Shown: piece by piece, positions 11,130 through 22,510 of the stretch
Position numbering within the stretch: position 1 is the stretch's first letter
How the letters are laid out: each line of letters opens with the position of its first letter
IMG/VR virus record: IMGVR_UViG_3300046490_000065
Location: 1 to 64,000 of that record
Origin: a virus
Taxonomy: Duplodnaviria; Caudoviricetes
DNA: 64,000 nucleotides
Direction: 5' to 3' (one strand)
Made by a program: the position numbers and the translations under genes
Notes under the pieces: model-generated
The model's database searches: none
What the model saw: only the letters and a program-made list of their open reading frames with translations
What the model was told of the DNA's origin: nothing

Positions 11130-11207
11130 GCGATGCAGGCCGCGCTTTCCAGCAGAGAGCGCGTCCTAGATGGCTTACCCAAAGCGATCAGAAGGAGCAC
11201 CGACAGC

Positions 11208-11561
11208 ATGAAGATTACAACGAGTATCACCAAGCTACGGGCGGCCGGAGCCTGCAAACCCAGGCTAGCCGTTCTCATGAATACCCTCTGCGGGTCGCAT
11301 ATCGATCTCGATGCTGATCTGGACAAACAAATCGTCCACGCCATCCACGCCATGGGCAACCACGCCGATCTGCCCATCAACGCCCTCGACATCCTCCACT
11401 CCAACGGAGTCGAGGACATCCTGTGGCTCATGGACTCCCCAGCCTGTCACCAGGATACGGCCCCGGCGTTGGCCGAGTATGAGCGCGTCACGGCCCCGGC
11501 GTTGGCCGAGTATGAGCGCGTCACGGCCCCGGCGTTGGAAACCATATTGGGAGGTGAGTGA
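11208..11561 (+). CDS. hypothetical protein with 11-aa tandem repeat
   Basis: AAGGAG SD; TAPALAEYERV x2.5. Confidence 0.7.
   Translation: MKITTSITKLRAAGACKPRLAVLMNTLCGSHIDLDADLDKQIVHAIHAMGNHADLPINALDILHSNGVEDILWLMDSPACHQDTAPALAEYERVTAPALAEYERVTAPALETILGGE
11457..11538 (+). repeat. 33-bp perfect tandem repeat, 2.5 copies
   Basis: ACGGCCCCGGCGTTGGCCGAGTATGAGCGCGTC. Confidence 0.95.
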
Positions 11562-13033
11562 AAATGAGCTTGATCCAGCAGTTCAAGGCCGCCTATGGGA
11601 AGTCGGTTCCGCTAATTGTCATCCAGACGGCGGATCCGGCCGCCACAGTGGCTAACATTCGAAGCAGTATGAACGGATCGGCACCGCCGATCCTACTCTG
11701 GGACATCGTACGGGGAGTTCGTTCCCTGAACGATAAGGGGAAAGAGATTCTTTCCACTATCCCCGATGCCGCCAACAAGGTGGACCCCATCGACGTGATG
11801 ATCGCGGCCGAGAGTCTGCCAGAAGACACGATCCTCTTCATGAGCAACATGCACCGAGTGATCGCTGGCAACGGTGTCTCTCAGGCCGTATGGAACCTCC
11901 GGGACCTATTCAAGGTCACTCATCGGTGTCTGGTCATGCTCTGCCCGTCTATCGATCTGCCGGTGGAGATCCAGCAGGACGTGATGGTCCTGGATGAGCC
12001 GCTGCCGGACAACGCACAGTTAGAGAAGATCGTGGCGGACATCTACAAGTCCGCACAGCAGAGCTACCCGGACATGGTGATCCCGGAGGACCTCAGCAAG
12101 CCGGTAGGGGCACTATCCGGACTCGCCGCATTCCCGGCCGAACAATCCTGTGCCGTCAGCCTGACCCGCAAGGGGATCAATCAGGACTGGCTATGGGAAA
12201 GGAAGAGGCGTGCGATCGAGGCTACCAAGGGGCTCGCCGTGCATCGCGGCAATGAGACCTTTGACCAGATCGGTGGCTGTGAGAACATCAAGCAGTTCCT
12301 CATGAGCGTTGTGAACGGCAAGGAGCCTCCTCTTGGTATCGTCTTCCAGGACGAGATTGAGAAGCAAGTGGCCGGCGCGGGCGGCGACACCTCCGGCGTC
12401 AGTGGAGAACTCCACGGCATTCAGCTTTCCTGGATGCAGGACCACCGGGCCGATGGATCGATCTTCATCGGCCCCCCCGGCGCCGCGAAGTCGGTCTTGG
12501 CCAAAGCATTCGGCAACACGGCCGGAGTGCCTACCATCGTGCTCGATACTGGCGCGATGAAGTCGTCTCTGGTTGGCGACAGCGGTGCTAACTTCCGCCA
12601 AGCGCTCAAGGTCATCCATTCGATCTCACAGGGGAGGACGTACTTCGTAGCTACTTGCAACTCCATCGAGGCAGTGAGCCCGGAGCTACGTCGGCGGTTT
12701 AAGTCCGGAATTTTCTTCTTCGATCTCCCAACGGCCGATGAGCGCAAGGCAATCTGGAAGATCTACTTCGGCAAGTACAAACTGGACAAACAGCAGCTTC
12801 CGAATGACGCCAACTGGACCGGCGCCGAGATCGAACAGGCTTGTTCGCTGTCCTGGAAGCTCAATGTCTCACTCATCCAGGCCGCCAACTACATCGTTCC
12901 GGTGGCCAAATCGGACGCCGAACGAATCAAGCGGCTCCGTCAACAGGCCGATGGTAAGTTCATCAGCGCTTCCTACTCGGGAGTCTATCAACTCGAACAA
13001 CAGGCCGAGACCGGCCGGAGGATTGAACTGTGA
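11558..13033 (+). CDS. Ycf46-like AAA+ ATPase with Walker B block placed before Walker A block
   Basis: FDQIGGCENIK, IVFQDEIEK, GPPGAAKS, FVATCN, IFFFDLP, WTGAEIEQ; Ycf46-type N-terminal domain. Confidence 0.88.
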   Translation: MKMSLIQQFKAAYGKSVPLIVIQTADPAATVANIRSSMNGSAPPILLWDIVRGVRSLNDKGKEILSTIPDAANKVDPIDVMIAAESLPEDTILFMSNMHRVIAGNGVSQAVWNLRDLFKVTHRCLVMLCPSIDLPVEIQQDVMVLDEPLPDNAQLEKIVADIYKSAQQSYPDMVIPEDLSKPVGALSGLAAFPAEQSCAVSLTRKGINQDWLWERKRRAIEATKGLAVHRGNETFDQIGGCENIKQFLMSVVNGKEPPLGIVFQDEIEKQVAGAGGDTSGVSGELHGIQLSWMQDHRADGSIFIGPPGAAKSVLAKAFGNTAGVPTIVLDTGAMKSSLVGDSGANFRQALKVIHSISQGRTYFVATCNSIEAVSPELRRRFKSGIFFFDLPTADERKAIWKIYFGKYKLDKQQLPNDANWTGAEIEQACSLSWKLNVSLIQAANYIVPVAKSDAERIKRLRQQADGKFISASYSGVYQLEQQAETGRRIEL

Positions 13034-13539
13034 TGAGACTATTCTGGAGACGGGAGGACCCCACTCCGAAGCATCCTAAGGGATGGATCAACCTGATCTA
13101 CTCTGACGGCCACACCGATTCGATTGTTGAGCATGAACTGCTGAACAAGGACATTCGTGAACTTACGGTATCTGATATCGTGAAATCTCTTCCTGTTAGC
13201 GCCGTTCTCTTCGATAACTATCGGGAAGAGTCAGAGCGGGCTCTCAAGGCTCTCCTCGCAAGGGAAATAGACGACGGGCCGATCCGTAGGTTTGTCGCCT
13301 TTGGATGCTCCTACGAGGACGACCCCGGCGATGATGTTGTAGACCTGCATTACCTATTGGCCAGCAGCATGGAGAAAGCGGAGGAGGTGCTGGCTGAACG
13401 TTATGGCGAGTTCACGATGCAGACCGTTTGGCCGCTTAACTCTCTGATTGCTTCCCTATCGGCGGCGGCCGGCGAGTCCGACCAGGAATACCAGAAGCGG
13501 GTAACTGTGAAGGAGGATGAAGAGGAGGACGACGAATAG
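13030..13539 (+). CDS. acidic hypothetical protein
   Basis: GTGA overlap. Confidence 0.65.
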   Translation: MMRLFWRREDPTPKHPKGWINLIYSDGHTDSIVEHELLNKDIRELTVSDIVKSLPVSAVLFDNYREESERALKALLAREIDDGPIRRFVAFGCSYEDDPGDDVVDLHYLLASSMEKAEEVLAERYGEFTMQTVWPLNSLIASLSAAAGESDQEYQKRVTVKEDEEEDDE

Positions 13540-13608: not shown

Positions 13609-13917
13609 ATGGCAGCAACGTACACGAAGTTACAGAACGGAAGCTGGGGCGTTCGCGCATCCGGCAAATTGACCGATGGAGCTACCGTCGTGGTTAGTAA
13701 GAAAGACGGTAGCACCAAGACGGAGACCGTGGAGAAAGTCCTATGGTCCGGTAAGGACCAGAAGACCGGCGCAATCGTCAGTCTTTGCGCTATAGAACGG
13801 GACAATGGCGGCGGATCGCGGTACAGTGGCCGACGCCGATACCGCGATGACGACCAATGCACCTGTCCGGCTTGCAGTTCGGGGAGTGAATGTCTTTGTA
13901 TCTATGGGAGGGGTTAG
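13609..13917 (+). CDS. conserved phage hypothetical protein
   Basis: GGAGG SD; TYTKLQNGSWGVR...VVVSKKDG. Confidence 0.7.
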   Translation: MAATYTKLQNGSWGVRASGKLTDGATVVVSKKDGSTKTETVEKVLWSGKDQKTGAIVSLCAIERDNGGGSRYSGRRRYRDDDQCTCPACSSGSECLCIYGRG

Positions 13918-14343
13918 ATGTCGAAATACGCGCAGTTTCCCACCAGCCTTACCGAAGGATCTCCACTTGTGGAGGCGCTTCGCTCACTGGGGTACGATGT
14001 GGCCACATCCGCCACACCGCAACCCTGCAACGGATACCAAGGGTCTCAGGGCCAAACGGCCGAGATCATCGTATCCAAGAAAAGCCTGATCGCCAAACAT
14101 GGCCATTGCTTTGGCGACATCGGGTTCACTAAGACGGCCGATGGCACCTACAAGGCCATCATTGACGACCTGGACCAGGACACCATCGGCGGCGATGGCT
14201 GGATGAACCGGCTGAAGCAGGAGTACACGGCCCAGCGGCAGATCGCGGTAGGCCGCATGAAGGGCTATACATATCAAGGGCGTGAAGTCGTGAAGCTGGC
14301 CGATGGCCGAGAGCAGGTACGGCTACAGTTCAAGGGGAGGTGA
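13918..14343 (+). CDS. DUF1257 (Ycf35-like) protein
   Basis: LVEALRSLGY...GDIGFTK...Y...D...LKQEY; usual neighbour of Ycf46-like AAA genes. Confidence 0.8.
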   Translation: MSKYAQFPTSLTEGSPLVEALRSLGYDVATSATPQPCNGYQGSQGQTAEIIVSKKSLIAKHGHCFGDIGFTKTADGTYKAIIDDLDQDTIGGDGWMNRLKQEYTAQRQIAVGRMKGYTYQGREVVKLADGREQVRLQFKGR

Positions 14344-14531
14344 GTATGGCAAAGACGATTACGGTAGTGGTGGAACCGGACGGGACCTTTTCTGTCGATC
14401 TGAAGGGGTTCGTGGGACAAGGGTGCGCCAAGGTGATGGCGGACTTCGCTGGCGGCGAGAAGCCCATCCTGGAGCGGAACAAGCCGGAGTTCCGAGAGGT
14501 GGAGAAGCAGGAGGCGAAACAGCGTGGCTAA
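14340..14531 (+). CDS. DUF2997 protein
   Basis: ITVVVEPDG...KGFVGQGC...KPEF. Confidence 0.8.
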   Translation: MSMAKTITVVVEPDGTFSVDLKGFVGQGCAKVMADFAGGEKPILERNKPEFREVEKQEAKQRG

Positions 14532-14760
14532 ATCGCGCCGCCCAACCCTCAAGGAGCAGGAGCAAGCCTGCGAGATCTGGAACCTCAAACACCCAGTGGG
14601 GACGAAAGTCACCTGCCGTATGGACTCAGGCGAAGTCCGGCACACTGTGACTACATCGGAAGCTCAGATGCTCTCCGGCCATACGGCAGTTATCTGGCTG
14701 GATGGGATCAGCGGGTGTTACCTTCTGGCACGAGTGGAGGTTGATCGTGCGTCTGCATAG
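14524..14760 (+). CDS. conserved phage hypothetical protein
   Basis: WNLKHPVGTKV...TTSEAQMLSGHTAVIWLDGISGCY. Confidence 0.65.
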   Translation: MAKSRRPTLKEQEQACEIWNLKHPVGTKVTCRMDSGEVRHTVTTSEAQMLSGHTAVIWLDGISGCYLLARVEVDRASA

Positions 14761-15418
14761 CATCCTTCACGGAAGTCGGGCCAACGGTCCCGGCCTGCGG
14801 TCTGTCATTTGGACACAGGGTTGTGGCATGCAACCCCTTTGCCCCGGTTGCCAGAATCCCGCCACCCATAGTTTCAGCGGCGGTCTGGAGATCGAGCCGG
14901 AAGACTTGGCCTATCAGATCATCCGCGAGGCCGCCGATGGGACCGAGGGGATCACGATCTCTGGCGGAGAGCCGATGTCTCAGGCCGCTTCTCTCTACCG
15001 CTTCATCTGCATGATCAACGCTATTCGGCCGCAATGGGACATTGGCCTCTTCACGGGATACACGGTAACGGAGCTTCAGACCGGCCATTACGATATGCGA
15101 GAACCCTTCAGCGAGTTCGCTAATACGTTCGAGCAATCTATGGAGAACCAACGCCTCTGGAACCTGCAAATCCTTGACCGGCTTACATGGGCCGTCTTCG
15201 GGAGATTCGACTCATCGCGTCCAACGTTGGACAACCAACCGCACCATAAACTTTGCAGTAGCGCCAACCAGCACTTGATGATTTTCCAGCGCTACTGGCG
15301 TCGATGGAGTTACGACGATTTTCCTGCTCGCTCCATGGAAGTCAACATCGAACCGGATGGACTAGTAAAGATCAGCGGGTTTCCGCCGATCAAATCAACA
15401 GAAGGAGAACACGCATGA
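14747..15418 (+). CDS. radical SAM protein, NrdG/glycyl-radical activase-like
   Basis: ANGPGLRSVIWTQGC-x5-CPGC, GITISGGEP, LFTGY, SANQ. Confidence 0.85.
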   Translation: MRLHSILHGSRANGPGLRSVIWTQGCGMQPLCPGCQNPATHSFSGGLEIEPEDLAYQIIREAADGTEGITISGGEPMSQAASLYRFICMINAIRPQWDIGLFTGYTVTELQTGHYDMREPFSEFANTFEQSMENQRLWNLQILDRLTWAVFGRFDSSRPTLDNQPHHKLCSSANQHLMIFQRYWRRWSYDDFPARSMEVNIEPDGLVKISGFPPIKSTEGEHA

Positions 15419-16422
15419 GCACTACGCCGACAATGCCCGCACCTAGCGTCTTACCGGCGCTCAACATAACTGACCGTACCGTGGCTATCAATCTCACGAT
15501 TGGCCGGCCAGGGAACTCCAAGAAGGTCTCCAAGAGCCAGATCAGCGAGAAGACCGAGAACTCCACCGTCACCCAGGACGCAGCGGTGGAAGTCGATGCC
15601 GACAAGGATTTGGTTGGAGTGTCGAAGAAACTCCTGAAGTCGAAGGAACTCCAGTCCATCGTGAAGCACGACGCCGAGACGGCCGAGTGGGTAAAGGCCC
15701 GCTCTGTGCCGTCCATGTTCAAAAAGGGGATCCACCTCGTGAAGATCGCCGCCGTCCAGCAGATCGAGGACTACCTACTAGAGGCCCAGCGGGTTCGCAA
15801 GGAAGTCCTAATCCCGGCGTTCCTGGCCGTCTACGACCAGCAGCGGGCCGAGGCCGAGCAACACCTCCGGGGGATCTACAATGCGGCCGATTACCCGCCC
15901 CGTGGAGTTGTGGCGGCATCGTTCGTGTTCGAGTGGGCCTACATCACCTTTGCCACGCCGGGAAAGCTCAAGGAGATCTCTGCGGACTTCTTCGAGCGGG
16001 AGAAAGCCAAGGCGGCCGAGAAGTGGTCCCAGGCCACCGAGCAGGCCAAGATCCTCCTACGGGTCCAGATGAAAGACCTTGTGGACCACCTCGTGGAGCG
16101 GCTTACGCCGGGAGATGACGGCAAGAAAAAAATATTCAAGAAGACCACCGTCTCCAACATCAGCGAGTTCCTGGAAAATTTCTCACTCCGTAACGTCACG
16201 GATGACGCCGAGATGGACTTCTTGGTGGGCCAAGCCAAAAAGCTCCTGGACGGTGTGGACCCGGACCAACTGCGCAAGTCGGAGGTCGATTCCGAGTGTC
16301 TTGCCAAGGGATTTGGGACGGTGAAGACGTTCCTGGACCAAATGGTAGAAGACGCTGGTTCGAGAAAGATCGTGTTCGATTCAGAGGAAGAGGAGGAAGA
16401 GGTAAACCCCTTCGGCGACTAG
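15415..16422 (+). CDS. helical hypothetical protein (DUF3150-like)
   Basis: AAGGAG SD; YNAADYP...F.F.W pattern. Confidence 0.6.
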   Translation: MSTTPTMPAPSVLPALNITDRTVAINLTIGRPGNSKKVSKSQISEKTENSTVTQDAAVEVDADKDLVGVSKKLLKSKELQSIVKHDAETAEWVKARSVPSMFKKGIHLVKIAAVQQIEDYLLEAQRVRKEVLIPAFLAVYDQQRAEAEQHLRGIYNAADYPPRGVVAASFVFEWAYITFATPGKLKEISADFFEREKAKAAEKWSQATEQAKILLRVQMKDLVDHLVERLTPGDDGKKKIFKKTTVSNISEFLENFSLRNVTDDAEMDFLVGQAKKLLDGVDPDQLRKSEVDSECLAKGFGTVKTFLDQMVEDAGSRKIVFDSEEEEEEVNPFGD

Positions 16423-17608: not shown

Positions 17609-17882
17609 GACCTACCGTTACCGCGTCACCCAGACCCTAGACATCGAGATCGGCAAGGCCGACCCTGTTAAGGCGGCTGAACTGGCCAGAAAGATCCAAC
17701 TGGATCCGCTGACCGAGGCCCGCTTCGCAGTGGAGATGCAGGGACCGTGCCCTAATTGCCACTGTTACGCTGTTCACCGGACACGCTGTAGCATTGCCAA
17801 GAAGCAGGGATGTGCCGCCGTTGACCTATCTACCAACGTCACCGTCACGGTCGAGTATAAGGACACCCCCGATGCAGGTTGA
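17601..17882 (+). CDS. hypothetical Cys/His protein
   Basis: CPNC...HRTRC. Confidence 0.55.
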   Translation: MAKTYRYRVTQTLDIEIGKADPVKAAELARKIQLDPLTEARFAVEMQGPCPNCHCYAVHRTRCSIAKKQGCAAVDLSTNVTVTVEYKDTPDAG

Positions 17883-18657
17883 CGCCCGCACCGAAGTGAA
17901 GCGCCTTTCGGCCATGATCTCCGGCATGGCTTACAAGCACAGTAGTTGGCAGGTGTTCTCGGACTTTGTGGAGGCCGCCGCGCTCTCCATCAGCAATGCA
18001 GTGGACCTTCCGCAGTATGAGAAGCGGGAGGCCCGCTACATGGAACTCATCAAGCGCTATGACGCCAAGGAACTGGCAATCTTCCCACAGATGTTGGCCG
18101 AACTCACCATGTCACTAGAGAACGAGATGGCCGACATTATGGGCCGGACGTACCACGAACTGGAGCTACACAACAAGTGGGCCGGGCAGTACTTCACTCC
18201 GTACGAGATCTGCCGCATGATGGCTAAGATGAACCTCGTGGACGGAGGTCTACAGGAGCGTATCGAACGTCGTGGTTTCATCACGCTCCAGGAACCCGCT
18301 TGCGGCTCCGGTGCCATGGTGATCGCGTTCGCTCAGGAGATGAAGGATGCTGGCTTCAACTATCAGCAACAATTGCACGTAACGGCCATGGACATCGACG
18401 CTAAGTGCTGTCACATGGCCTACCTGCAACTCTCCCTGCTTCACATTCCCGCCGTCATCATCCACGGGAATACTCTCAGCCTGGAGGAATACGGCCGCTG
18501 GTACACGCCTGCCCACATCATGGGTGGATGGGGCCACCGGCTTAACCATCCCGAGATCGAGATCCCGCCGGCCGAAACTTCGGTGGATGAATCCTGGGAC
18601 TTTTTGAACGAGTGCCTGGACGAACCTACTACGGCATGTGCTTCCAAGTTTTCCTAA
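17872..18657 (+). CDS. N6-adenine DNA methyltransferase-like protein lacking a visible NPPF/DPPY motif
   Basis: GQYFTPYEI, EPACGSGAM, DID, HGNTLS. Confidence 0.8.
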   Translation: MQVDARTEVKRLSAMISGMAYKHSSWQVFSDFVEAAALSISNAVDLPQYEKREARYMELIKRYDAKELAIFPQMLAELTMSLENEMADIMGRTYHELELHNKWAGQYFTPYEICRMMAKMNLVDGGLQERIERRGFITLQEPACGSGAMVIAFAQEMKDAGFNYQQQLHVTAMDIDAKCCHMAYLQLSLLHIPAVIIHGNTLSLEEYGRWYTPAHIMGGWGHRLNHPEIEIPPAETSVDESWDFLNECLDEPTTACASKFS

Positions 18658-20827: not shown

Positions 20828-21209
20828 CGACATCATCCACCATAATGCGCTCTGCGCCAAGTGCGGTTGCTCTCAGACGTTGCCTGTTGAGATACAGGAG
20901 TGTACGTGCCCATGCCACCCCGATGGCCAGGGATCCCGCGAATACAGGGCAGGCTACCGTGGACCCTTCTCGGAAGACGTCATGGCGCACCAGCGGGAGA
21001 TGAACCGTATCCAGTCCGGCGTAAACGAGATCAGTCCAACATTGGACCGGATCCACGCTGCCGACACTGAACTTCTCGATTGGTTACAGGAACAGATAGT
21101 AGACACCATCTATCTGGATGACGGCCGAATCATCGATGTTTGCGGCGGCAACTTGCGGGTTGCTATCGCCGTTGCAAAAGCCAAAAACCCGTCGCAAGAA
21201 ACCTCTTGA
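20823..21209 (+). CDS. hypothetical protein
   Basis: ORF in operon; CTCPCH. Confidence 0.55.
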   Translation: MDDIIHHNALCAKCGCSQTLPVEIQECTCPCHPDGQGSREYRAGYRGPFSEDVMAHQREMNRIQSGVNEISPTLDRIHAADTELLDWLQEQIVDTIYLDDGRIIDVCGGNLRVAIAVAKAKNPSQETS

Positions 21210-21234
21210 CTTGCCGATTTTTTCGCTGTAAACT
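21206..21234 (+). promoter_or_regulatory. sigma70-type promoter
   Basis: TTGACT-N17-TAAACT upstream of dnaN. Confidence 0.8.
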
Positions 21235-21301
21235 CCAAAAAGAACAACCGCCCGGCGCTTTCGTCGGGCAACACCCAGCACAACAGGAGCTTGTCCAAAT
21301 C

Positions 21302-22510
21302 ATGATCGTAAACGTCAAGGAACTACTCAAGGAACTCGATTACATCGGGCGGTTTGTGGAAAAGAAGACCTCCATCCCGATCCTGGCCCACGCGCTGATA
21401 TGCGCGGGTGGCGACAAACTGTCCCTGGTGGGGACGGATCTGGAACTTACGGGGATGACGTCAATCCCTGGGACCGCCGAGGCGCCGGCCGAATCGTGGA
21501 CTATCACGGCACCCATCAGGAAACTGAAAGAGTATCTGAAGCAGGTGGATGACAAAGAGGTCAGTGTGTCCGCGTCCATCGAGACAGGCAAGCCGGTGAA
21601 GATCACGCGAGACAAACTGGACGACAACGGCAAGCCAACCTACGACCCGATCACTCGCGCCAAGGTGACGGAGGAAGTCGAGGAGACCTACACCACGTAC
21701 CGGCTGGTCCTGCATCACGGCGATGGCGGCGAAGCCAGCTTCGAGGGGATGGACCCCAAGTGCTTCCCCGAAGTGGCTATCCCGGCCAAGATCCACGGGG
21801 AACTGGGCAACCTGAAGCAGATGTACCAGCGCTGCGAGATGGCGATTTCGAAAGAGGAGTCCCGGTTCACCCTCAACGGGGCTCTCCTAATCCTCAATCC
21901 GGAGAACAGCGCGGTAGTATCGACGGACGGCCACCGGCTGTCCTACCTGCCCGCCACCTTCACAGCACTGGAGCCGTGCAAGACCATCGTCATGAAGAAA
22001 GCGCTGTTTGAGGCGCAGCGGATGAATGGCGATACCTGCCTCTTTGGAATGGACGAGAACTTCCAGCTTTTCTTGGGCCACCAGCGCTCCATCGTCGCCC
22101 GCAAGCTGAAAGGCAACTTCCCGGACTACGAGCGGGTATTGCCCAAGGAGTTCTGGCGGTCCATCACGGTGGACGCGAAGGAACTGCACAAGATCATCAA
22201 GCGGTCGGCCGTATGCGCCCATGAGCGGAGCCGGGCCATCCAATTGTACGTGAAGGACAAGACTCTGGTGGCCGAAGCGAAGCAGATGGAGCAGACGGCC
22301 AGAGGCAGTATCCCAATCGAATGGCCGGATGACGCGGCATGGCGGGGTGGCATCAACGCCGACTACGCGTTGGGGTTCTTAGCCTTGGCCGATGGGCCAG
22401 TGACGTTCGGCTTTCAGGCGGTACGGGAGGGCAAGGAGTGTGTGGACGCCGCGATGCAGTTCTCCACGCCGGAAGGGTGGTTGATGGTGATTATGCCCAT
22501 GCGGATTTGA
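21302..22510 (+). CDS. dnaN: DNA polymerase III beta sliding clamp
   Basis: KKTSIPIL, GTDLE, EESRFTLNG, VSTDGHRL, GNFPDYERVLP, C-terminal VIMPMRI. Confidence 0.93.
   Translation: MIVNVKELLKELDYIGRFVEKKTSIPILAHALICAGGDKLSLVGTDLELTGMTSIPGTAEAPAESWTITAPIRKLKEYLKQVDDKEVSVSASIETGKPVKITRDKLDDNGKPTYDPITRAKVTEEVEETYTTYRLVLHHGDGGEASFEGMDPKCFPEVAIPAKIHGELGNLKQMYQRCEMAISKEESRFTLNGALLILNPENSAVVSTDGHRLSYLPATFTALEPCKTIVMKKALFEAQRMNGDTCLFGMDENFQLFLGHQRSIVARKLKGNFPDYERVLPKEFWRSITVDAKELHKIIKRSAVCAHERSRAIQLYVKDKTLVAEAKQMEQTARGSIPIEWPDDAAWRGGINADYALGFLALADGPVTFGFQAVREGKECVDAAMQFSTPEGWLMVIMPMRI

What the first reader, a model, noticed from the sequence alone, without database searches (positions are those of the whole stretch)
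12245..12780. AAA+ ATPase with internally swapped blocks: Walker B precedes Walker A
Seen: the order is FDQIGG..., then IVFQDEIEK...DTSGV...SWMQD (Walker B, about 12338), then IFIGPPGAAKS...LDTGAMKSSLVGDS... (Walker A, about 12470), then YFVATCN (sensor 1). Established: Ycf46-type and other AAA domains run Walker A, pore loop, Walker B, sensor 1. Each block matches Ycf46 motifs, so two adjacent blocks are exchanged inside one intact frame. This is a non-circular permutation that rewires the core sheet while keeping the catalytic residues.
Basis: partly seen in the sequence, partly recalled or inferred. Interest (0 to 1): 0.8.

Follow-up and report, generated by a model that had tools for sequence, protein, structure and literature searches.

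The report
Phage AAA+ ATPase with swapped core segments
This phage gene encodes an ATP-driven ring-motor protein whose Walker B segment is encoded ahead of the Walker A segment. The swap is real, a very large virus-borne family shares it, the normal fold appears to be kept, and I found no published description.

Summary
The gene at 11564-13033 (+) lies in a complete 94.6-kb phage genome and encodes a 489-aa AAA protein. Its order is helix 0, Walker B unit (residues 258-297), Walker A unit (298-358), sensor 1.

- **Clean swap:** a profile of normal-order relatives matches the native protein in four out-of-order pieces that tile the profile. Exchanging the two units in silico gives one collinear match, rising from 137 to 182 bits.
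- **Not a misassembly:** all 410 non-identical relatives aligned have this order, including isolate phage Tunturi_3 gp103. Walker A Lys, sensor-1 Asn and the Arg finger are invariant, and Walker B Glu is present in 409 of 410.
- **Family size:** a search of 1.84 billion cluster representatives gave 1,219 hits at E<=1e-30.
- **Fold:** residue covariation places the moved strand beside strand 4, as in the normal 5-1-4-3-2 sheet. So connectivity is rewired, not the sheet. I had no model coordinates for a direct check.
- **Context:** the gene sits in the same module (AAA, DUF1257, DUF2997) as normal-order phage relatives. The module's function is unknown.

The scan had already noted this family on other DNA, with the same reading. 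Four literature searches found no description.

The parts
11564..13033 (+). Whole gene, 489 aa plus stop. The ATG lies 9-10 nt after a GGAGGT ribosome-binding site. The stop TGA overlaps the ATG of the next gene.
11564..12238 (+). N-terminal domain (residues 1-225). It is an alpha/beta domain without nucleotide-binding motifs. In the model it aligns with the D1 ring domain of p97/Cdc48, and it is homologous to the N-domain of normal-order relatives.
   Evidence: whole model against p97 residues 210-766: Z 18.4, 393 aligned, rmsd 6.3; profile 22-273 to residues 7-246, 54.9 bits
12239..12334 (+). Block A end (residues 226-257): helix 0 with FDQIGG, then the linker ...GKEPPL that in normal-order relatives leads into strand 1.
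   Evidence: covariation of helix 0 with helix 1 (239-308, 242-312, 246-316, 250-320)
12335..12454 (+). Block C (residues 258-297), the moved unit: strand 3 with Walker B IVFQDE (nt 12338-12355), pore loop 2 (QVAGAGGDTSGVSG) and helix 3 (...LSWMQD).
   Evidence: canonical profile 354-393 to residues 259-296, independent E 6.6e-6; D263 401/410, E264 409/410
12455..12637 (+). Block B (residues 298-358): strand 1, Walker A GPPGAAKS (nt 12470-12493), helix 1, strand 2, pore loop 1 SLVGDS (nt 12566-12583) and helix 2.
   Evidence: canonical profile 294-351 to residues 298-355, 41.1 bits; K309, G306 and G338 410/410
12638..12733 (+). Start of block D (residues 359-390): strand 4 with sensor 1 YFVATCN (nt 12641-12661), second region of homology with Arg fingers RRR (nt 12689-12697), and strand 5.
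   Evidence: profile 395-527 to residues 359-474; N366 and R378 410/410
12734..12973 (+). Helical lid subdomain (residues 391-470).
   Evidence: helices 391-461; AAA-module matches extend to residues 462-470
13918..14343 (+). DUF1257 (Ycf35-like) gene, a conserved downstream partner.
   Evidence: PF06868, E 4.8e-11; present in 60/72 viral and 60/65 genomic loci
14340..14531 (+). DUF2997-like gene, a conserved downstream partner. The window copy scores just under the Pfam cut-off (20.7 against 24.1 bits).
   Evidence: 39/72 viral and 58/65 genomic loci
15304..16422 (+). DUF3150-like gene, the fourth conserved member of the module. The likely start is near 15415.
   Evidence: 69/72 viral and 54/65 genomic loci; Atlas look-alike clusters, 18-29% of members carry PF11348

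Best explanation
The gene encodes a two-domain AAA protein of a tailed phage. It has a degenerate, D1-like N-terminal domain and a classic-clade AAA module. Inside that module, the 40-residue unit 'strand 3 (Walker B), pore loop 2, helix 3' is encoded ahead of the 61-residue unit 'strand 1 (Walker A), helix 1, strand 2, pore loop 1, helix 2'.

Shown:
- The two units tile the profile of normal-order relatives exactly, with nothing lost or duplicated.
- The order is fixed in a very large family.
- Every catalytic residue is conserved.
- The gene occupies the same module slot as normal-order relatives.
- Covarying residue pairs place the moved strand next to strand 4, pore loop 2 next to pore loop 1, and the old helix 2 to strand 3 junction still in contact.

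Inferred:
- The three-dimensional core is the ordinary 5-1-4-3-2 sheet, and the chain path is helix 0, b3, a3, b1, a1, b2, a2, b4.
- The two new crossovers (b3 to b1 over b4; b2 to b4 over b3) run the same way across the sheet as the ones they replace. Helices 2 and 3 can therefore keep their native face and the right-handed rule holds.
- The protein is an ATP-hydrolysing hexameric remodelling motor.
- It works with the DUF1257, DUF2997 and DUF3150-like proteins encoded downstream, in the early/replication region of the phage. Its substrate is unknown.
- It arose once. The likeliest route is tandem duplication of the internal B-C segment, followed by loss of the first B and the last C.
For: **The swap is exact**
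- Canonical-family HMM against the native protein gives four pieces: profile 22-273 to residues 7-246 (54.9 bits), 354-393 to 259-296 (14.5 bits), 294-351 to 298-355 (41.1 bits), and 395-527 to 359-474 (24.4 bits).
- The un-swapped sequence gives one hit, 22-527 to 7-474, at 181 bits.
- BLASTP against three normal-order phage proteins rises from 90, 81 and 74 bits to 135, 134 and 119 bits after un-swapping.
- Pfam AAA covers positions 2-53/131 at 40.6 bits here, against 1-130 at about 100 bits in normal-order relatives.

**Family-wide**
- The 120 best homologues and the 150 best of 1,219 cluster representatives at E<=1e-30 share the order.
- So do 160 viral and genomic loci and Tunturiibacter phage Tunturi_3 gp103.
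- Conservation in 410 sequences: E264 409, K309 410, S/T310 410, N366 410, R378 410, G338 410.

**Fold**
- AlphaFold2 model with mean pLDDT 79; residues 258-262 form a strand.
- The AAA module aligns with Vps4, p97 D2 and spastin at Z about 15, about 200 of 245 residues, rmsd about 3 A.
- Mean-field DCA (Neff 260): the top pair of all is G258-S355.
- Strand-pair couplings, counted as pairs above the 99th percentile: b3'-b4 7, b1-b4 3, b3'-b2 3, b1-b5 2. The six non-adjacent strand pairs have 0-1.
- In full-length DCA, block C has 31 of the top 200 pairs with blocks B and D, and 1 with the N-domain.

**Same module as normal-order relatives:**

**One origin suffices:** 46 permuted and 33 normal-order sequences are split by a single branch with SH-aLRT 100.

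**Inteins** sit at the P-loop and at sensor 1 in some members.
Against: - No model coordinates were available, so I could not do a non-sequential superposition or measure the Walker B to P-loop distance.
- The b3'-b2 coupling is weak (top-3 sum 2.82, against a null mean of 2.34).
- DCA cannot tell contacts within a subunit from contacts between subunits.
- No biochemical data exist for any member.
- The tree sampled normal-order relatives from only one subfamily plus two outliers. A long branch joins the groups, and no root was tested.
- The module's function is unknown. The DUF1257 model (pLDDT 91) has no convincing structural match.
Confidence: 0.85

Rival explanations
1. Assembly or scaffolding artefact: the order is produced by a mis-join in this metagenomic virus contig.
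For: The record is a metagenome-derived IMG/VR contig.
Against: The same order occurs in 410 non-identical sequences from many samples at 40-63% identity. These include an isolate phage genome and chromosomal contigs up to 3.65 Mb. The frame is intact and both junctions fall exactly at strand starts.
Confidence: 0.01
2. Block C is not part of the C-terminal AAA core. It would be a leftover of the degenerate N-terminal AAA-like domain (a tandem-AAA remnant), and the C-terminal module would simply lack Walker B.
For: The N-terminal domain has an AAA-like fold and aligns with p97 D1. HMMER can also align helix 2 plus strand 4 of this family to the helix 3 plus strand 4 region of p97.
Against: - Blocks B and C tile the canonical profile without gap or overlap, and un-swapping restores one 181-bit hit.
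- In full-length DCA, block C couples with blocks B and D in 31 of the top 200 pairs and with residues 1-225 in 1.
- Strand 258-264 couples most strongly with strand 4.
- D263, E264 and K267 are nearly invariant.
Confidence: 0.03
3. The moved unit inserts in trans. Strand 3 and helix 3 of one subunit would complete the core of a neighbouring subunit, giving an interlocked ring.
For: Covariation cannot separate contacts within a subunit from contacts between subunits. Permuted or split folds sometimes domain-swap (general knowledge).
Against: - The monomer model builds one compact module with pLDDT 80-86 across both junctions.
- The linkers are short: PPLG runs directly into strand 3, and about 4 residues separate helix 3 from strand 1. 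Each has to reach only one or two strands further than in the normal order (inference).
Confidence: 0.07
4. A catalytically dead scaffold: the motifs are relics and the rewired domain no longer hydrolyses ATP.
For: No member has been assayed. Q262 in the window protein replaces the usual hydrophobic residue before DE.
Against: Walker A Lys, sensor-1 Asn, the Arg finger and the pore-loop Gly are invariant, and Walker B Glu is present in 409 of 410 sequences, at 40-60% overall identity. Inteins are inserted at the P-loop and at sensor 1, sites that inteins typically target in active enzymes (general knowledge).
Confidence: 0.05

Closest known systems
Normal-order AAA ATPases of the phage AAA/DUF1257/DUF2997 module: Rhizobium phage RHph_I4 EVC24_084, Aeromonas phage HJ05 _65, Streptococcus satellite Javan368 _0002 (JGI name 'SpoVK/Ycf46/Vps4 family AAA+-type ATPase')
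   Same: They share a homologous N-terminal domain and homologous blocks A, B, C and D, at 22-25% identity native and 26-31% after un-swapping. They have the same (L/Y)VG pore loop, DE(I/V)(D/E)K Walker B and LTxMQ(D/E) helix 3. The module is the same, with DUF1257 and DUF2997 downstream.
   Different: Their order is Walker A unit then Walker B unit, and Pfam AAA covers the full profile. In the window's family the two units are exchanged. The fourth module gene also differs: DUF3150-like here, against a replication-initiator-like protein in RHph_I4.
Classic-clade AAA unfoldases (p97/Cdc48 D1-D2, Vps4, spastin, fidgetin-like 1)
   Same: These are the best structural matches. The whole model aligns with p97 D1D2 (Z 18.4, 393 aligned). 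The AAA module aligns with Vps4, p97 D2 and spastin at Z about 15, about 200 aligned, rmsd about 3 A. Walker A, pore loop 1, sensor 1 and the Arg-finger region align in sequence.
   Different: In HMMER alignments, the Walker B strand and helix 3 of p97 are skipped. The N-terminal ring domain here has no nucleotide motifs. The partners and substrates are different.
Circularly permuted GTPases (YlqF/RbgA, YjeQ/RsgA; from my own knowledge, not tested here)
   Same: They are a precedent for a P-loop NTPase family that keeps its fold and activity with the motif order changed.
   Different: Those are true circular permutations, with new N and C termini, of a TRAFAC GTPase. Here the termini and both flanks stay in place and two internal units are exchanged, in an AAA+ (ASCE) core.
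Cyanobacterial and plastid Ycf46, and Ycf35 (DUF1257)
   Same: The AAA protein has the same size and two-domain layout. The partner family DUF1257 is the plastid and cyanobacterial Ycf35. DUF2997, ycf35 and fed7 are clustered in cyanobacteria (PMC4284462).
   Different: I made no direct comparison with a genuine Ycf46.

Membership tests
Classic AAA / AAA+ (Pfam PF00004) | Walker A GxxGxGK[ST] | tested here: met
   GPPGAAKS, residues 303-310. G306 and K309 are present in 410/410 sequences and S/T310 in 410/410.
Classic AAA / AAA+ (Pfam PF00004) | Walker B hhhhDE | tested here: met
   IVFQDE, residues 259-264. D263 is present in 401/410 sequences (8 have E) and E264 in 409/410. It matches the Walker B region of the canonical profile, positions 354-393.
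Classic AAA / AAA+ (Pfam PF00004) | Sensor 1 Asn and second region of homology with Arg finger(s) | tested here: met
   YFVATCN...ELRRRF. N366 and R378 are present in 410/410 sequences and R377 in 386/410. The region aligns with the p97 second region of homology.
Classic AAA / AAA+ (Pfam PF00004) | Collinear order: Walker A, pore loop 1, Walker B, sensor 1 | tested here: not met
   The order here is Walker B, Walker A, pore loop 1, sensor 1. The canonical profile matches in four out-of-order pieces. Pfam covers only positions 2-53/131.
Classic AAA / AAA+ (Pfam PF00004) | Score over the Pfam gathering threshold | tested here: met
   40.6 bits against a cut-off of 21.2, carried by the Walker A block alone.
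Classic AAA / AAA+ (Pfam PF00004) | Alpha-beta-alpha core with 5-1-4-3-2 parallel sheet plus helical lid | tested here: inconclusive
   This is supported by model matches to Vps4, p97 D2 and spastin (Z about 15). It is also supported by covariation: b3'-b4, b1-b4, b1-b5 and b3'-b2 are the only strand pairs with two or more strong couplings. No coordinates or solved structure were available to confirm it.
Ycf46-like ATPases of the AAA/DUF1257/DUF2997 module | Homologous N-terminal domain of about 230-290 aa | tested here: met
   Canonical-family profile 22-273 aligns to residues 7-246 at 54.9 bits. tblastn to HJ05 and Javan368 spans residues 15-470.
Ycf46-like ATPases of the AAA/DUF1257/DUF2997 module | DUF1257 and DUF2997 genes downstream on the same strand | tested here: met
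   Present in the window at 13918 and 14340. Found in 60/72 and 39/72 viral loci and in 60/65 and 58/65 genomic loci. The normal-order phages RHph_I4 and HJ05 have the same layout.
Ycf46-like ATPases of the AAA/DUF1257/DUF2997 module | Specific similarity to genuine cyanobacterial or plastid Ycf46 | not tested
   Pfam, NCBIfam and PHROGs gave no Ycf46-specific model. The label comes only from JGI names of normal-order relatives.
Circularly permuted P-loop NTPases | Permutation that creates new chain termini (circular) | tested here: not met
   Blocks A and D keep their places and only the internal blocks B and C are exchanged.

The most novel reading that the evidence does not exclude
The rewiring may not be neutral. 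With strand 3, Walker B and pore loop 2 now tethered to helix 0 instead of helix 2, two things could follow. The unit could insert in trans into the neighbouring subunit, giving an interlocked ring. Or the path that couples ATP hydrolysis to pore-loop movement could be changed. Either would make this family a mechanistically distinct kind of AAA+ motor rather than a silent topological variant.
Probability: 0.08. Interest if true: 0.9.

Novelty: new variant of a known kind. Interest (0 to 1): 0.72.

Why it matters
The AAA+ core is among the most conserved and best-studied enzyme folds, and its motif order is treated as fixed.
- **Protein evolution:** here a non-circular exchange of two catalytic units has been fixed and has spread to more than a thousand 50%-identity clusters of phage and prophage proteins. 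Evolution can therefore rewire the connectivity of this core without losing it.
- **A natural experiment:** normal-order and swapped proteins sit in the same gene module. This matched pair could be used to study folding order, allosteric coupling between Walker B, pore loops and the P-loop, and permutation by internal duplication.
- **Annotation:** profile methods see only a third of the domain (Pfam positions 2-53), so the family is under-annotated.

Tried and rejected
Alignments A2 and A3 had been prepared for it.
- Model coordinates are not exposed, so non-sequential superposition was replaced by covariation analysis.

**Function of the neighbours**
- Pfam and PHROGs gave nothing useful for ORFs 13030-13539, 13609-13917 and 15304-16422. 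ORF 14524-14760 matched only phrog_9165, of unknown function.
- The DUF1257 model (pLDDT 91) had no match by Foldseek (best E 0.057). The wide VIA search gave a best Z of 6.3 (KA1-like and TBP-like alpha+beta folds), which is within the noise range.

**Weak hits**
- The NCBIfam hit to the anti-phage ATPase IteA (E 1e-6, 28 bits against a cut-off of 510) covers only the sensor-1/lid region and is generic AAA similarity.

**Literature**
- Four searches for a permuted AAA+ or P-loop core found nothing relevant.
- Papers on DUF1257, DUF2997, Ycf46 and Ycf35 give only gene-cluster and presence/absence data.

**Method note**
- A regex motif count flagged 7 family members as not permuted. These were pattern artefacts, such as extra GxxGxxK matches upstream. 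The alignment shows all of them are permuted.

Full report
**What is there.** The finding lies inside one open frame, 11564-13033 on the + strand (489 aa). An ATG follows a GGAGGT site, and the stop overlaps the next gene's ATG. The window belongs to a virus record of 94,628 bases that CheckV rates as complete. This is its only match to Pfam AAA.
- FDQIGG (233-238)
- IVFQDE (259-264, nt 12338-12355)
- DTSGVSGE...SWMQD
- GPPGAAKS (303-310, nt 12470-12493)
- SLVGDS (335-340)
- YFVATCN (360-366)
- RRR (376-378)

**Is it a swap?** Pfam AAA matches only residues 300-351, to profile positions 2-53 of 131, at 40.6 bits. Three phage proteins found by tblastn have the normal order: Aeromonas phage HJ05 _65, Streptococcus satellite Javan368 _0002 and Rhizobium phage RHph_I4 _084. 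In them Pfam covers positions 1-130 at about 100 bits.

I defined four blocks: A (1-257), C (258-297), B (298-358) and D (359-489).
- Re-joining them in silico as A-B-C-D raises BLASTP scores against the three normal-order proteins from 90, 81 and 74 bits to 135, 134 and 119 bits.
- I built a profile from more than 100 normal-order relatives. It hits the native protein in four pieces: profile 22-273 to residues 7-246, 354-393 to 259-296, 294-351 to 298-355, and 395-527 to 359-474.
- These pieces tile the profile with nothing missing or duplicated.
- The un-swapped sequence gives a single hit, 22-527, at 181 bits against 137 bits for the native protein.
- Of ten control swaps of the same sizes placed at random, eight lowered the score or left it about the same. 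The two that fell at or near the true breakpoint restored it, to 180 and 156 bits.

So two adjacent units are cleanly exchanged while both flanks stay put.

**Is it real and general?**
- The 120 best hits among 5.8 billion proteins are 50-63% identical over 97-100% of the length and share the order.
- A search of 1.84 billion cluster representatives gave 1,219 at E<=1e-30. The best 150 all have the same order.
- Eighty viral contigs and 80 genome contigs added 161 more sequences.
- The isolate phage Tunturiibacter phage Tunturi_3 carries it as gp103 'ATPase' at 38% identity.
- In 410 non-identical sequences the catalytic residues are conserved as follows: E264 409, D263 401 (plus 8 E), K309 410, S/T310 410, N366 410, R378 410, pore-loop G338 410.

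This excludes misassembly and argues for an active enzyme. Four members carry inteins at the P-loop or at sensor 1.

**Does the fold survive?**
- The AlphaFold2 model has mean pLDDT 79, with 80-86 around the junctions. Its elements run: strand 258-262, helix 279-293, strand 297-302, helix 309-320, strand 324-327, helix 339-355, strand 359-365, strand 382-385, then lid helices.
- The whole model aligns with p97/Cdc48 D1-D2 (Z 18.4, 393 residues, rmsd 6.3). The N-terminal domain is therefore a degenerate D1-like domain.
- The AAA module alone aligns with Vps4, p97 D2, spastin and fidgetin-like 1 at Z about 15, about 200 of 245 residues, rmsd about 3 A. The roughly 40-residue shortfall is what a sequence-ordered aligner should leave out.

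This was mean-field DCA on 409 sequences with Neff 260.
- The strongest coupling of all is G258-S355. These are the start of the moved strand and the end of helix 2, which are covalently joined in normal-order proteins.
- Only four of the ten strand pairs have two or more couplings above the 99th percentile: b3'-b4 (7), b1-b4 (3), b3'-b2 (3) and b1-b5 (2). These are exactly the four neighbour pairs of a 5-1-4-3-2 sheet.
- Pore loop 2 couples with pore loop 1 (280-333, 282-341, 282-330). Helix 0 couples with helix 1 in helical register.
- In a full-length analysis, block C has 31 of the top 200 couplings with blocks B and D and only 1 with the N-terminal domain.

My inference is that the sheet is unchanged and only the chain path is rewired. 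Both new crossovers run across the sheet in the same direction as the ones they replace. Helices 2 and 3 can therefore stay on their native face.

**Context and function.** Downstream on the same strand lie:
- DUF1257 at 13918-14343 (Pfam E 4.8e-11);
- a DUF2997-like gene at 14340-14531;
- a DUF3150-like gene at 15304-16422.

Profiles built from these genes find them next to the swapped ATPase as follows:

| Partner gene | Viral loci (of 72) | Genomic loci (of 65) |
|---|---|---|
| DUF1257 | 60 | 60 |
| DUF2997-like | 39 | 58 |
| DUF3150-like | 69 | 54 |

The normal-order phages RHph_I4 and HJ05 have the same layout: ATPase, one gene, DUF1257, DUF2997. The swapped protein therefore fills the same functional slot.

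Nearby genes are a DNA methylase and a sliding clamp, which points to the early/replication region. Hosts of genomic copies are mostly Acidobacteriota (Bryobacteraceae, Terriglobia). Armatimonadota, Nitrospirales, Myxococcota and Dormiibacterota also occur, and some assemblies carry three to five copies.

The module's function remains unknown. The DUF1257 model is confident (pLDDT 91) but has no convincing structural relative. From the classic-clade pore loops and Arg fingers, I infer a hexameric protein- or nucleoprotein-remodelling motor that works with these small partners.

**Origin.** I built a tree from 46 un-swapped family members and 33 normal-order relatives. The two orders are separated by one branch with SH-aLRT 100, so one event suffices. 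The caveats are narrow sampling of normal-order relatives, a long connecting branch and no root. An exchange of adjacent units equals a circular permutation of the internal B-C segment. Tandem duplication of that segment, followed by loss of the outer copies, is the simplest route. This is an inference, and I did not look for intermediates.

**Known or new?** Four full-text searches found no description of an AAA+ or other ASCE core with Walker B ahead of Walker A. The nearest precedent I know is the circularly permuted GTPases, which differ in kind. Earlier notes of this scan record the same family on other DNA with the same conclusion. They are not independent evidence, but they agree with what I tested here. 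I class it as a new variant of a known kind.

Noticed in passing
window 11457-11538: A perfect 33-bp tandem repeat with 2.5 copies lies inside the upstream ORF 11133-11561. It encodes TAPALAEYERV repeated. The ORF has no family match.
   Followed up: partly
proteins P0125, P0220, P0237, P0265 (family members): Four members are 653-896 aa long because of inteins with LAGLIDADG or HNH homing endonucleases. The inteins are inserted at the P-loop (after about residue 308-326) or at sensor 1 (after about residue 366).
   Followed up: partly
window 15304-16422; L001 9627-10655: A DUF3150-like gene is the most constant neighbour of the swapped ATPase, present in 69/72 viral loci. Its homologue in Tunturi_3 (gp96) is annotated 'HNH endonuclease'. 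No Pfam hit supports that name.
   Followed up: partly
genome loci L088-L167: Several Acidobacteriota assemblies carry three to five copies of the swapped ATPase module on different contigs, some on contigs of 2-3.6 Mb. Examples are CAWHRX01, JALHNH01 and JAIEPW01. This suggests multiple prophages or another integrated element.
   Followed up: no
window 17794-18657 and 21140-22510: An N6 DNA methylase-like gene and a DnaN-type sliding-clamp gene lie downstream of the module. They place it in the replication/early region.
   Followed up: no
window 13030-13539: A 169-aa acidic-tailed ORF sits between the ATPase and DUF1257, with its start overlapping the ATPase stop. It has no homologue in the 160 related loci, although normal-order phages also have one unrelated gene in this position.
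   Followed up: partly
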